In this document: positions 60,201 to 63,200 of the stretch, piece by piece
Layout of the letters: each line of letters begins with the position of its first letter
Position numbering within the stretch: position 1 is the first letter of the stretch
Source: Escherichia coli
GTDB taxonomy: Bacteria > Pseudomonadota > Gammaproteobacteria > Enterobacterales > Enterobacteriaceae
Direction: 5' to 3' (one strand)
Length of the DNA stretch: 64,000 nt
Assembly: GCF_003018115.1 (NCBI RefSeq)
Contig: NZ_CP027457.1
Program-made: the position numbers

Positions 60201-63200
60201 AAAGGCGGGCGCTTAATTGTTGAAAAAGATGGGATTGCCGTCTTTGCCGCTATCGAAAAGGGAGGATTACTGGAGGTTAAAGACGGGGGATTAGCATTTG
60301 CGGTAGATCAGAAAGCAGGCGGTGCTATTAAAGCAAGCACGCGGGTCATGGAGGTATTCGGAACAAACCGTCTCGGTCAGTTCGAAATCAAGAATGGTAT
60401 TGCTAACAATATGCTGTTGGAAAACGGCGGAAGTTTGCGAGTTGAAGAAAATGACTTCGCTTATAATACTACTGTAGATAGTGGCGGCTTACTGGAGGTT
60501 ATGGATGGCGGGACTGCAACTGGCGTTGATAAAAAAGCAGGCGGAAAATTAATTGTCTCAACGAATGCGCTGGAAGTGAGTGGTACAAACAGTAAAGGCC
60601 AATTTAGTATAAAAGATGGTGTGTCAAAAAATTATGAACTGGATGATGGTTCTGGGCTTATTGTTATGGAGGACACGCAGGCCATTGACACTATCCTCGA
60701 TGAGCATGCCACTATGCAATCGCTGGGAAAGGATACTGGTACGAGAGTGCAGGCAAATGCGGTATATGATCTCGGTCGATCAGATCAGAATGGAAGTATA
60801 ACGTATTCCTCTAAAGCCATCTCTGAAAATATGGTTATCAACAATGGCCGCGCTAATGTCTGGGCTGGCACAATGGTTAACGTTTCAGTCAGAGGGAATG
60901 ATGGCATTCTTGAGGTCATGAAGCCGCAAATAAATTATGCACCCGCTATGTTGGTGGGTAAGGTAGTGGTTTCTGAGGGCGCTTCTTTTAGAACGCATGG
61001 TGCCGTGGATACCAGCAAAGCGGATGTTTCGCTCGAAAATAGCGCATGGACCATCATTGCCGATATCACTACGACGAACCAAAACACCCGCCTTAACTTA
61101 GCCAACCTTGCGATGTCTGGCGCAAATGTGATTATGATGGATGAGCCAGTGACTCGTTCATCTGTGACGGCAAGTGCGGAAAATTTCACTACGTTGACCA
61201 CCAATACCCTGTCGGGAAACGGCAATTTTTATATGCGTACCGATATGGCGAATCATCAGAGCGATCAGCTCAACGTCACCGGTCAGGCAACAGGTGATTT
61301 CAAAATATTCGTGACGGACACCGGTGCCAGCCCGGCAGCAGGAGATAGCCTTACACTGGTAACAACGGGCGGCGGTGATGCTGCATTTACGTTGGGCAAT
61401 GCCGGAGGCGTTGTTGATATCGGTACGTATGAATATACCTTGCTGGATAATGGCAACCATAGCTGGAGTTTGGCAGAGAATCGCGCGCAAATTACCCCTT
61501 CAACCACTGATGTGCTGAATATGGCGGCCGCACAACCGCTGGTATTTGATGCAGAACTGGACACCGTGCGTGAGCGTCTTGGTAGCGTAAAAGGCGTTAG
61601 TTACGATACGGCGATGTGGAGTTCGGCAATTAACACCCGCAACAACGTGACCACTGATGCGGGAGCTGGTTTTGAGCAAACATTGACGGGCCTGACGCTC
61701 GGTATCGATAGCCGTTTCTCCCGTGAAGAAAGCAGTACAATTCGCGGCTTGTTCTTTGGTTACTCTCATTCTGATATTGGTTTTGATCGCGGCGGAAAAG
61801 GTAATATCGATAGCTATACCCTGGGGGCTTATGCCGGTTGGGAGCATCAGAACGGTGCCTATGTTGATGGAGTGCTGAAAGTTGACCGTTTTGCCAACAC
61901 CATCCATGGCAAGATGAGTAATGGGGCAACAGCGTTTGGCGATTACAGTAGTAACGGCGCAGGTGCTCATGTCGAGAGCGGGTTCCGTTGGGTTGACGGA
62001 TTGTGGAGTGTTAGACCCTATCTCGCCTTTACCGGCTTTACCACAGATGGTCAGGACTACACGTTATCAAACGGCATGCGCGCGGATGTGGGAAATACCC
62101 GGATATTACGCGCTGAAGCGGGAACGGCGGTAAGCTATCACATGGACCTGCAAAACGGTACGACGCTGGAACCCTGGCTGAAAGCCGCCGTGCGTCAGGA
62201 ATACGCCGATTCTAACCAGGTGAAAGTTAATGACGATGGCAAATTTAATAATGATGTGGCTGGAACCCGTGGCGTTTATCAGGCTGGGATAAGGTCATCG
62301 TTTACCCCGACGTTAAGCGGTCATTTGTCAGTCAGCTATGGCAATGGCGCAGGGGTAGAATCGCCGTGGAATACCCAGGCTGGTGTGGTCTGGACGTTCT
62401 GATAACAGACAATAAACAGGCCGTGATGTGTCGCGGTCTGTTTATCGAATTAAATGCAGATATAAAAAAACCAACCTTTACGGTTGGTTTTTTTTGGGAT
62501 TTTTGGTCGCACGAGAGTAGTTTAATTGAACGTGTAACTTAATGATTTAAAAGAATGAGTCTGATTCAACTTTTAAGCCGTATAACCAAACGTATAGCTA
62601 AATTTATTTGCTGAAAAAATGTACAATTTAGAGTCAGATTTTCCCAGATGTTTAATTTATAAAACGAAGCTGGCGGCTGTTCTCTGATATGTGGATCCCC
62701 ATATCTGGAACCCTACCGGAATTTTTTTCCGGTTACCCTTTAATCAGGCTGGTGGGCTTTACCTGTTCGGTAGGTATGATCATTATGATCATACCTTTCG
62801 CCCCAATGGGAGGTAAAAGCGCCAACTGGACGGTTAAACCGTCTTTTTGTCACATCGTGTCACTGGTTGTCACTCTCCGTCACGATGTCCGCTCGCCTGG
62901 CTGTAAATCAAACTACGAAATTTTCGTAGTTGTGAGTAAGCCCCAAAATATGGGGATTACTCTTACTACCCAAACTACGGGTAGTTTCCGTAGTTTCATA
63001 GTCGAGTTGCAGATCTGCAACTCCCCCACCAGCCAGCGCAATTTTGCGCTTTGCTTTAAGTTCAGCGAGTTACAGCGCCGACTTCCTCAAATTGAGGTTG
63101 CCGGAAATATCAACCAGTTACGAGGCTCAAAATTGAGCCGCCTTTAAATCAACACGTTACCGCCGTAACCGCTCCGGCTTCTTCCAGTTGTACGTAATTT

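What the first reader, a model, noticed from the sequence alone, without database searches (positions are those of the whole stretch)
62849..62883. Four GTCAC pentamers at exact 10-bp phasing
tGTCACatcgtGTCACtggttGTCACtctccGTCACgatg places four identical pentamers on one face of the helix, directly after a hairpin+T5 terminator-like structure (62829-62848). Helically phased direct repeats are typical of iterons, integrase arm-type sites or response-regulator binding arrays.
Basis: seen in the sequence. Interest (0 to 1): 0.45.

Follow-up and report, generated by a model that had tools for sequence, protein, structure and literature searches.

The report
Phased GTCAC repeats in satellite tail
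Four GTCAC repeats spaced exactly one DNA turn apart are a real, conserved but optional protein-docking module in the non-coding end of a phage-parasitising island (PICI-type satellite) of E. coli; they are not the island's own origin, integrase sites or packaging site, and their binding protein is still unknown.

Summary
GTCAC occurs at 62849, 62859, 62869 and 62879, a pattern seen in 0 of 100 shuffles, after a hairpin and T5.

The array lies 330 bp inside the integrase-distal end of a ~10 kb PICI-type phage satellite inserted at tRNA-Pro (proL) beside yejO. Most of the element lies beyond the window.

The same module occurs in 230 of 5,426 complete E. coli genomes and in 38 IMG/VR contigs, as 17 sequence variants. 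These have 3-5 copies, always in 10-bp register, with indels only as whole units. 71 of 72 pentamers are exact, while the spacers vary.

It is an optional cassette. It occurs with three different head/packaging modules, at least two unrelated integrases and three replicase types, and no satellite gene co-varies with it.

The satellite's own ori iterons (TACTCCCCACTTTT), its integrase arm sites (CGTATAACYAAA) and a cos-like site were all found elsewhere.

GTCAC at 10-bp spacing is the iteron signature of a common O-like initiator of lambdoid prophages (42 of 42 loci). My leading, unproven reading is therefore a docking array for a factor supplied in trans, most likely such a helper initiator.

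Moderate interest; a new variant of a known kind.

The parts
62849..62883 (+). Four GTCAC pentamers at exact 10-bp spacing (YGTCAC-N4). This is the array itself.
   Evidence: The array is conserved in 17 variants with 71 of 72 pentamers exact.
62839..62848 (+). Constant 5' flank CCGTC + T5. The GTC lies 10 bp before the first GTCAC, so it may be a degenerate extra repeat.
   Evidence: CCGTCT(T/G)T2-4 precedes every variant of the array.
62828..62844 (+). Hairpin GGACGG-TTAAA-CCGTCT. With the T-run it looks like an intrinsic terminator on the + strand.
   Evidence: -10.1 kcal/mol. The stem is shorter or absent in relatives.
62503..62517 (.). att repeat, a copy of the 3' end of tRNA-Pro (proL). 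It marks the end of the satellite.
   Evidence: It matches the 3' end of the tRNA-Pro gene in L001 (22016-22092), apart from one missing base. BLAST homology to copies of the satellite at other chromosomal sites starts at 62510-62517.
62579..62602 (+). Tandem CGTATAACCAAA / CGTATAGCTAAA. These are the probable integrase arm-type sites.
   Evidence: The same 12-mer occurs twice directly and twice inverted beside the integrase gene, at L001 21826-21884.
62519..63156 (.). Non-coding mosaic 'tail' of the satellite, in which the array is one optional cassette.
   Evidence: Module-wise homology to other satellites.
63157..63438 (-). orf93, the universal last gene of this satellite family (PHROG 1561, function unknown).
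   Evidence: The AlphaFold2 model has low confidence and gives no fold match.

Best explanation
The array is an accessory cis-acting docking site. Three to five YGTCAC sites, one helical turn apart, line up on one face of the DNA. A sequence-specific DNA-binding protein could therefore load side by side, as on iterons.

Inference: the binder is not encoded by the satellite's variable genes. It is supplied in trans, most plausibly by a helper phage.

The best specific candidate is the O-like replication initiator that is common in E. coli lambdoid prophages. It has the N-terminal motif WLRLWHDMPNDPKW and a C-terminal DnaT domain. Its own origin consists of GTCAC repeats at 10-bp spacing.

Binding would give the satellite a helper-responsive second initiation site next to an A/T-rich stretch, or would soak up the helper's initiator.

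What is shown:
- the repeats and their register are conserved;
- the module is optional;
- it is independent of the satellite's int, rep and packaging modules;
- GTCAC arrays are tightly linked to that initiator family.

What is inferred: that a protein binds here at all, who the binder is, and what binding does.
For: 1. Selection on the repeats. There are 17 variants with 3-5 units. All are in 10-bp register and indels occur only as whole units. 71 of 72 pentamers are exact, while at least 7 of 15 spacer positions vary. This includes copies found by BLAST or through orf93, which were not selected for exact pentamers.

2. One array per element. L001 has no other phased GTCAC pair across its 10 kb.

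3. The array is optional and portable. It is present in about 13 of about 50 tails sampled through orf93. It occurs with the cf-PICI HK97-type module, the lambda E/D-type module and the ClpP-MCP fusion type. It occurs with integrases only 22-26% identical to the window's, and with AAA_25 RepA-helicase, D5-type primase-helicase and 'DNA primase family' replicases.

4. No satellite ORF cluster associates with array presence. A conserved satellite protein would have no site in the majority that lack the array.

5. The initiator link. In all 42 IMG/VR loci that carry the O-like initiator, a GTCACx4 array lies inside that gene. E. coli examples are annotated 'DNA replication protein O / primosomal protein I'. 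They carry two arrays, the second followed by an A/T-rich stretch. More than 590 such loci exist in IMG/VR.

6. Precedent. Iterons provided in trans can exclude phages that use the cognate initiator (PMC3349717).
Against: No binding data exist.

The motif alone is not diagnostic. GTCAC arrays also occur next to terminase and portal genes, next to integrases, and overlapping -35 regions of promoters in other phages.

The inner repeats read GTCACT, whereas the initiator iterons are mostly GTCACG/A.

The A/T-rich stretch lies on the opposite side of the GTCAC strand compared with the phage origins.

Co-residence of an initiator-type prophage is no higher for array-bearing satellites (2 of 29 isolates) than for the family in general (8 of about 75). 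This comparison uses truncated lists.

The experimentally known cf-PICI helpers HK106 and HK446 are not among the 26 phage records with this initiator. EcCIEDL933 seems to lack the array.

The satellites already have their own replicon.
Confidence: 0.3

Rival explanations
1. The array is the operator or activator site of a small leftward (minus-strand) transcription unit. A regulator bound to the repeats controls a weak promoter whose -35 is the last GTGACA. The product would be a tiny RNA ending at a nearby terminator.
For: In most 'Fam A' copies, a good minus-strand intrinsic terminator (ATGACGTGGCCAACGTCAT + T6) lies about 60 nt beyond the array, across an A/T-rich stretch (sequences). TTGTCA resembles the -35 hexamer. 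In other phages, GTCAC arrays end at the -35 of clear promoters (L326, L087, L341).
Against: The left-hand part, including the terminator, is missing in the window's copy and in the A' sub-family, yet the array is intact there. The promoter scans find nothing there. There is no Rfam match.
Confidence: 0.15
2. The array is a packaging recognition site (pac or cosB-like) for the small terminase of a particular helper phage. It would widen the range of helpers that can package the satellite.
For: GTCAC arrays sit directly upstream of a Terminase_2 terS gene (L087), beside a portal gene (L074), and between terL and portal (L022/L113 family). The array is optional, as a helper-specific add-on would be.
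Against: Related satellites carry true lambda cosN (GGGCGGCGACCT) upstream of orf93, not in the tail. The window's type has a conserved cos-like ACGGGGCGGGCGGCGCGG at 63620-63638. The array is more than 700 bp from that site. It shows no link to the satellite's own TerS type. The phages with terminase-linked arrays are not E. coli phages (GC content; no match).
Confidence: 0.12
3. The array is a binding site for a host regulator, for example an OmpR/PhoB-family response regulator. TGTCAC is a Pho-box half-site, and CpxR/OmpR sites have a 10-bp period (from my own knowledge of these families).
For: The head-to-tail repeats at 10 bp fit this family's architecture. Other tail modules are host-factor sites: perfect IHF consensus sites and Chi.
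Against: Pho boxes have an 11-bp period and A/T-rich spacers; here the period is strictly 10 and the spacers are G/C-containing. No -10 element lies at the expected distance. A benefit through a universal host factor fits poorly with the module being present in only about a quarter of tails.
Confidence: 0.1
4. The repeats are integrase arm-type or excisionase (RDF) sites of attP.
For: The array lies in the integrase-distal arm region, where lambda has its Xis sites (textbook knowledge). In other elements, GTCAC arrays lie next to integrase genes (L036, L052).
Against: A different repeat, CGTATAACYAAA, is shared by both arms. No GTCAC pair lies on the integrase side. The array occurs with integrases only 22-26% identical and at different att sites. 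Its distance to the att end of the tail varies: about 330 bp in the window, about 650 bp in L003, and several hundred bp in L005.
Confidence: 0.04
5. The repeats are the satellite's own replication origin, or a second cis-replication region like P4 crr.
For: The repeats look like iterons. P4 has a second iteron cluster far from its ori (textbook knowledge).
Against: The own-ori architecture lies directly after the RepA-helicase gene: two sets of TACTCCCCACTTTT flanking a spacer. That motif is unrelated to GTCAC. The array occurs with three replicase types and is absent from most satellites that share the same replicase.
Confidence: 0.04
6. The repeats no longer function in this copy (a relic of recombination), or they act at the RNA level in the 3' UTR of the late operon.
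For: The window's copy is a truncated version of the commoner module. In the A' sub-family the array lies between the orf93 stop codon and a sense-strand terminator, so it is probably transcribed.
Against: The pentamers are intact in every lineage, including this one, while the flanks are reshuffled. An exact 10-nt register kept through unit indels is what a DNA-helix constraint predicts, not an RNA fold. The predicted RNA pairing of the array is specific to the window's spacers.
Confidence: 0.1

Closest known systems
Origin iterons of O-like ('replisome organiser' / primosomal protein I-like) initiators of lambdoid prophages, e.g. Escherichia phages Evi, Tritos, vB_EcoS-689R5
   Same: Same core (GTCAC, usually preceded by T), same 10-bp register, and 4-6 copies next to an A/T-rich stretch.
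   Different: The phage arrays lie inside the initiator gene, occur as two sets, and mostly read GTCACG. The satellite array is intergenic, single, has GTCACT in its inner units, and has opposite polarity relative to the A/T-rich side. No initiator of this family is encoded by the satellite.
PICI replication origins (two iteron sets flanking an AT-rich region downstream of pri-rep; Fillol-Salom et al. 2018, PMC6092414)
   Same: Short direct repeats in a PICI-type element.
   Different: That architecture is present elsewhere in this satellite, with a different motif (L001 16365-16559). The GTCAC array is far from rep and independent of it.
Lambda oop-ori 'inhibition phenotype' (iterons in trans exclude rep-lambda phages; PMC3349717)
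   Same: The concept: origin repeats carried on another replicon acting on a phage's initiator. Most copies of the module also have a small terminator-bearing unit beside the repeats.
   Different: No experimental link exists, and the initiator family and sequence are different.
Integrase arm-type sites, and Xis/Cox/Apl-type excisionase arrays
   Same: Phased direct repeats in an attP arm.
   Different: The array does not co-vary with the integrase, is absent from the other arm, and lies at a variable and long distance from the core.
OmpR/PhoB-family response-regulator boxes
   Same: Head-to-tail pentamer or hexamer repeats roughly one helical turn apart. TGTCAC is a Pho-box half-site (own knowledge).
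   Different: The period is 10, not 11, the spacers are not A/T-rich, and there is no promoter context.
matS (MatP site GTGACRNYGTCAC)
   Same: The half-site is GTCAC (own knowledge).
   Different: matS is an inverted repeat with a 3-bp spacer. Here all copies are direct repeats with 5-bp spacers, and no GTGAC occurs on the same strand.

Membership tests
PICI / cf-PICI-type phage satellite (context of the array) | About 10-15 kb island at a specific att site with int, alpA-like regulator, own replicase plus ori, no tail or lysis genes, and optional capsid/packaging genes | tested here: met
   L001/L002 carry the full copy: int, AlpA-like HTH, Icd-like, DUF4222, RepA helicase (AAA_25), PerC, ClpP-MCP fusion and orf93, with att at tRNA-Pro. 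A circular 11-kb relative was assembled from a metagenome. Helper dependence was not tested.
Own-replicon origin iterons | Repeats adjacent to the rep gene that co-vary with the Rep type | tested here: not met
   A different iteron (TACTCCCCACTTTT x5) sits after the rep gene. The GTCAC array occurs with three replicase types.
Integrase arm-type sites | The same repeat on both arms of attP, co-varying with the integrase | tested here: not met
   CGTATAACYAAA fulfils this. No GTCAC pair lies near int. The array occurs with integrases 22-26% identical to the window's.
O-like initiator iterons | GTCAC core repeated at a 10-bp period, 4 or more copies | tested here: met
O-like initiator iterons | Located within or beside the cognate initiator gene | tested here: not met
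   jackhmmer with the initiator's N-terminal domain finds no hit in any satellite locus.
O-like initiator iterons | Bound by the initiator; supports unwinding or initiation | not testable with these tools
   Needs EMSA or footprinting and replication assays.
cos/pac terminase recognition site | Adjacent to the cleavage site, and/or co-varying with the TerS type | tested here: not met
   cosN or cos-like sequences lie upstream of orf93. The array is independent of the packaging module.
OmpR/PhoB response-regulator box array | Direct repeats replacing or abutting the -35 of a promoter | tested here: inconclusive
   The repeat architecture fits. No sigma-70 promoter was detected beside the array.
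Rho-independent terminator (the hairpin before the array) | A stable GC-rich stem followed by a U-run, conserved as a structure | tested here: inconclusive
   Present in the window (-10.1 kcal/mol). Relatives have a 4-5 bp stem, and the A' sub-family has none.
matS / MatP | Palindrome GTGACRNYGTCAC | tested here: not met
   Only direct repeats are present.
Protein-coding or known RNA gene | A reading frame preserved in homologues, or an Rfam family match | tested here: not met
   10-bp unit indels and T4-T6 length changes break any frame. No Rfam match covers the array, even at E below 1. There is no phage DNA match.

The most novel reading that the evidence does not exclude
Origin mimicry. 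A subset of E. coli PICI-type satellites carries, as a portable cassette in the non-coding tail, a copy of the iteron signature of a common prophage replication initiator (GTCAC at 10 bp). The satellite could then be fired by the replication initiator of a particular helper phage class, or could titrate it. This would be independent of the satellite's own replicon, integrase and packaging system.
Probability: 0.25. Interest if true: 0.75.

Novelty: new variant of a known kind. Interest (0 to 1): 0.45.

Why it matters
The non-coding ends of PICI and cf-PICI satellites are unannotated. None of the 258 copies of this module in complete E. coli genomes carries a feature.

This work shows that the 'tail' is a mosaic store of cis-acting sites: integrase arm sites, Chi, repeated palindrome + IHF units, and this optional phased array.

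If a helper protein docks on the array, it would be a helper-specificity determinant that can be swapped independently of genes. That would help explain which phages mobilise, or are blocked by, which satellites. It would also give a simple sequence marker for predicting satellite-helper pairs.

If the binder turns out to be a host or satellite regulator, the finding is an ordinary operator.

Tried and rejected
- **Lambda cosN in the tail.** None there. It was later found upstream of orf93 in related satellites.
- **Rfam** at E below 1: only spurious hits on the yejO terminator.
- **Distant BLAST of the tail against 50,697 phage records:** no match, so it is not a gene remnant.
- **Association of array presence with any satellite ORF cluster** (35/60/85% identity clustering, Fisher tests). 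Only spurious ORFs within alternative tail modules scored. Loci are not phylogenetically independent, and some are truncated.
- **Alternative phased motifs in array-less tails:** none.
- **orf93 as a candidate binder:**
  - No significant Pfam or PDB sequence match; the best E-values were 0.11 and 0.053.
  - PHROG 1561, function unknown.
  - AlphaFold2 pLDDT 65, with no Foldseek match at E below 2. This led nowhere.
- **Co-residence of initiator-type prophages with array-bearing satellites,** using IMG taxon ids: no enrichment, but the lists were capped.
- **Literature search** for GTCAC/TGTCAC iterons: nothing relevant.
- **cf-PICI and Rpp papers:** they do not describe the tail or this array.
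- **The terL-portal array family (L113):** no match in the phage collection, host unknown.
- **Pfam on 10 ORFs that contain arrays in other phages:** no families.
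Full report
**1. The observation**

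The window reads tGTCACatcgtGTCACtggttGTCACtctccGTCACgatg at 62848-62887. The four pentamers start at 62849, 62859, 62869 and 62879. The pattern, even with two mismatches allowed, occurs only here in 64 kb. It appeared in none of 100 dinucleotide-preserving shuffles.

The preceding GGACGGTTAAACCGTCT hairpin plus T5 is found by the terminator scan. It folds at -10.1 kcal/mol, z = -2.45.

**2. Where it sits**

- The 863-aa ORF at 59811-62402 is the autotransporter YejO. Its strong terminator is at 62464-62494.
- Homology to copies of the downstream DNA at other chromosomal sites begins at 62510-62517.
- The sequence TTGGTCG-CACGAGAG at 62503-62517 repeats the 3' end of tRNA-Pro(GGG). Everything from about 62519 to the window's end is therefore the integrase-distal end of an island inserted at proL.
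- Near-identical full copies exist in E. coli OkiPb01682 (L001, same site) and JNE141411 (L002, inside an lpf fimbrial gene).
- They show a ~10 kb element: integrase, AlpA-like HTH, Icd-like, DUF4222, RepA-family helicase (AAA_25), PerC, a ClpP-protease/major-capsid fusion, and a 93-aa last gene (orf93, window 63157-63438 minus strand). A 640-bp non-coding 'tail' follows, up to att.
- This is the architecture of a PICI-type phage satellite with a capsid gene.
- The array lies in the tail, about 330 bp from att and about 270 bp from orf93.

**3. The tail is a mosaic and the array is one cassette**

BLAST shows separate blocks of the tail recombined among satellites at other att sites.

The hairpin + T-run + array block is present in:
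- L003, a lambda E/D-type capsid satellite at proL;
- L005, a ClpP-MCP satellite at clpS.

It is absent from L004, a cf-PICI with a full HK97-type head and terminase module.

A sample of 80 IMG/VR loci anchored on orf93 gives the array in about 13 of about 50 tails that are long enough to judge. It occurs with all three head/packaging types, with integrases either near-identical or only 22-26% identical to the window's, and with different replicases.

A complete, circularly assembled 11-kb array-bearing satellite (L039) has a D5-type primase-helicase rather than the window's RepA helicase.

The module is found in 230 of 5,426 complete E. coli genomes, in 258 places. All are chromosomal and none is annotated. 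It also occurs in 38 IMG/VR contigs.

**4. Evidence of selection on the repeats**

Across all copies there are 17 distinct variants:
- Copy number is 3, 4 or 5.
- Every copy is in exact 10-bp register.
- Differences in copy number are whole-unit indels.
- 71 of 72 pentamers are GTCAC. The exception is a GTCGC in a fifth position.
- Spacers vary: ATCGT, GGCGT, GGTGT, TGTGT and TATGT in unit 1; TGGTT, TGGCT and AGGTT in unit 2; TCTCC, CCTCC and TCTCT in unit 3.
- The T-run varies from 4 to 6.

Copies found by BLAST or through orf93, which were not selected for exact pentamers, are equally intact. Array-less tails contain no degenerate array and no alternative phased motif.

The constant left flank is CCGTCT + T-run. 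The hairpin itself is not conserved: one sub-family has TATTTAAATA instead of GGTTAAACC and does not fold.

Ten-bp indels and T-run changes rule out a coding function. There is no Rfam match and no match to phage DNA.

**5. What it is not**

*(a) Not the satellite's own origin.* L001 has five TACTCCCCACTTTT repeats in two sets immediately after the RepA-helicase gene. This is the arrangement described for E. coli PICI origins (PMC6092414). The GTCAC array is 4 kb away and occurs with three replicase types.

*(b) Not integrase arm sites.*
- A tandem CGTATAACCAAA / CGTATAGCTAAA at 62579-62602 recurs four times beside the integrase gene on the other arm.
- No second GTCAC pair exists in the element.
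- The array is found with unrelated integrases.
- The array's position in the tail is not fixed. Its distance from orf93 ranges from 44 to 445 bp, and its distance from the att end ranges from about 330 bp (window) to about 650 bp (L003).

*(c) Not cos.*
- Related lambda-type satellites carry one or two exact lambda cosN sequences (GGGCGGCGACCT with lambda-like flanks). These lie just upstream of orf93 and flank a TerS/Rpp-like gene. This matches the two-cos arrangement reported for EcCICFT073 (PMC6739421).
- The window's type has a conserved cos-like ACGGGGCGGGCGGCGCGG in the equivalent place, at 63620-63638.

*(d) No satellite ORF cluster associates with array presence*.

**6. What phased GTCAC arrays do elsewhere**

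- In 42 loci the array lies inside the gene of an O-like initiator, and every locus that has this initiator has the array in the gene. The initiator has the N-terminal motif WLRLWHDMPNDPKW and, in the E. coli representative, a DnaT domain in the C-terminal half.
- E. coli examples are annotated 'DNA replication protein O', 'primosomal protein I' or 'replisome organiser'.
- They carry two arrays about 280 bp apart. The second is followed by an A/T- and purine-rich stretch, a lambda-ori-like layout.
- The family is common, with more than 590 IMG/VR loci.

Other arrays lie:
- upstream of a terS gene, beside portal genes, or between terL and portal;
- beside integrase genes;
- ending at the -35 of obvious promoters.

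The motif is therefore typical of protein-docking arrays but is not diagnostic of one function.

**7. Inference on mechanism**

The argument runs as follows:
- The array is single and under selection, yet optional.
- It is uncoupled from every variable satellite gene.
- A conserved satellite protein would have no site in most family members.

The binder is therefore most likely extrinsic. A universal host factor fits poorly with presence in only about a quarter of tails. A helper-specific factor fits the polymorphism.

Among E. coli phage proteins, the only family I could link to this exact architecture is the O-like initiator. Hence the leading hypothesis is a helper-initiator docking site, acting as a second, helper-fired origin or as a decoy. 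The lambda oop-ori exclusion phenotype is a conceptual precedent (PMC3349717).

I put this at about 0.3. Weaknesses:
- The inner units read GTCACT.
- Polarity relative to the A/T-rich side is reversed.
- There is no enrichment of co-resident initiator prophages: 2 of 29 against 8 of about 75, from capped lists.
- The known cf-PICI helpers HK106 and HK446 lack this initiator.

The generic claim, that this is a DNA-level protein-binding array under selection, I put at about 0.8.

Rival readings are listed with their tests in the Rival explanations section: a regulator of a small leftward RNA unit, a helper TerS site, a host response regulator, Int/RDF sites, the satellite's own ori, and a relic or RNA-level element.

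**8. Other features of the tail**

- Two perfect IHF consensus sites lie at 63108-63120 and 63147-63159. Each follows a short palindrome whose stem differs between copies. Such units recur 2-8 times in related tails, and the last one overlaps the orf93 stop codon.
- Chi sites lie at 62748-62755 (+) and 63026-63033 (-). Chi is present in almost all related tails.
- A perfect 20-bp palindrome lies at 63004-63023.

The tail thus looks like a depot of cis-acting sites for host and phage machinery, which is the natural setting for an accessory docking array.

**9. Comparison and novelty**

This is a phased direct-repeat, iteron-like array, which is a known kind of element.

What is new:
- its placement as a portable, optional cassette in the unannotated tail of PICI-type satellites;
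- its independence from the element's own rep, int and terminase functions;
- its match to the iteron signature of a prophage initiator family.

I found no description of it in the cf-PICI or Rpp papers, or by text search.

**Limits**
- There is no experimental evidence.
- The IMG/VR scans were capped.
- The sampled loci are related to one another.
- The orf93 structure prediction was of low confidence, and the fold search was uninformative.

Noticed in passing
window 62579-62602; L001 21826-21884: Tandem 12-mers CGTATAACCAAA / CGTATAGCTAAA lie about 70 bp inside att. The same 12-mer recurs twice directly and twice inverted next to the integrase gene at the other end. These are probably the integrase arm-type sites.
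   Followed up: partly
window 63083-63160 (IHF sites 63108-63120 and 63147-63159): Repeated units, each a short palindrome (CCTCAAATTGAGG, GGCTCAAAATTGAGCC, AGCGCAATTTTGCGCT...) followed by a perfect IHF consensus WATCAANNNNTTR. The stems differ between copies but stay complementary. Related tails have 2-8 units, and the last one overlaps the orf93 stop codon. Only 5 IHF-consensus matches occur in the whole 64-kb window, and 2 of them are here.
   Followed up: partly
window 62748-62755 (+) and 63026-63033 (-): Chi sites (GCTGGTGG). The first lies inside a tail block conserved across satellites. Almost every related tail has 1-3 Chi sites, which suggests protection of linear or rolling-circle satellite DNA from RecBCD.
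   Followed up: partly
window 63620-63638 (- strand): The sequence ACGGGGCGGGCGGCGCGG followed by A7-CGC-T7, between the capsid-fusion gene and orf93. It is conserved in 13 of the 16 ClpP-MCP-fusion-type loci searched and is duplicated in L137. It sits where lambda-type satellites carry true cosN, so it is a candidate cos site of an unknown helper type.
   Followed up: partly
L130 9058(+)/9936(-), L039 9507/10277 and many others: Satellites with lambda E/D-like capsid genes carry one or two exact lambda cosN sequences (GGGCGGCGACCT with lambda-like flanks). When there are two, they are in inverted orientation around a TerS/Rpp-like gene, immediately upstream of orf93.
   Followed up: partly
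window 63157-63438 (- strand): orf93 is the universal last gene of this satellite family. It is at least 74% identical across the family and belongs to PHROG 1561, of unknown function. The model has three predicted helices at pLDDT 65, with no fold or sequence match.
   Followed up: yes
window 63004-63023: A perfect 20-bp palindrome, GAGTTGCAGATCTGCAACTC, shared with many cf-PICI tails. In the IMG/VR sample, tails with this block lacked the array (0 of 33 against 13-14 of 35), but the window has both.
   Followed up: no
L014 6030-6095 and 6311-6355: The O-like initiator genes of E. coli lambdoid prophages contain two GTCAC iteron sets about 280 bp apart. One lies in the N-terminal-domain coding region and one in the linker. 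The second is followed by AGATAAAGATACAGATAAAGAATTAAA.
   Followed up: partly
L058 ~250-345, L003 5940-6020, L005 6100-6185: In the commoner version of the module, a minus-strand intrinsic terminator (ATGACGTGGCCAACGTCAT + T6) lies about 60 nt beyond the array. This may be a tiny RNA gene. That part is missing from the window's copy.
   Followed up: no
L039 (IMGVR_UViG_3300045988_152974): An 11,098-nt metagenome contig with a 119-nt terminal direct repeat. It represents a circular or concatemeric, excised array-bearing satellite, with int, a D5-type primase-helicase, SSB, lambda E/D-like capsid genes and orf93.
   Followed up: partly
window 62851-62859 and 62879-62887: In the window's variant only, the first and last spacers are complementary (CACATCGTG / CACGATGTC), so the array could form a hairpin of about -10 kcal/mol. 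This is not conserved in other variants.
   Followed up: yes
L002 (NZ_AP027256 4245717-4255394): The same satellite, with an identical integrase (WP_000101906.1), is inserted inside an lpf fimbrial gene instead of at tRNA-Pro. This indicates use of a secondary att site.
   Followed up: no
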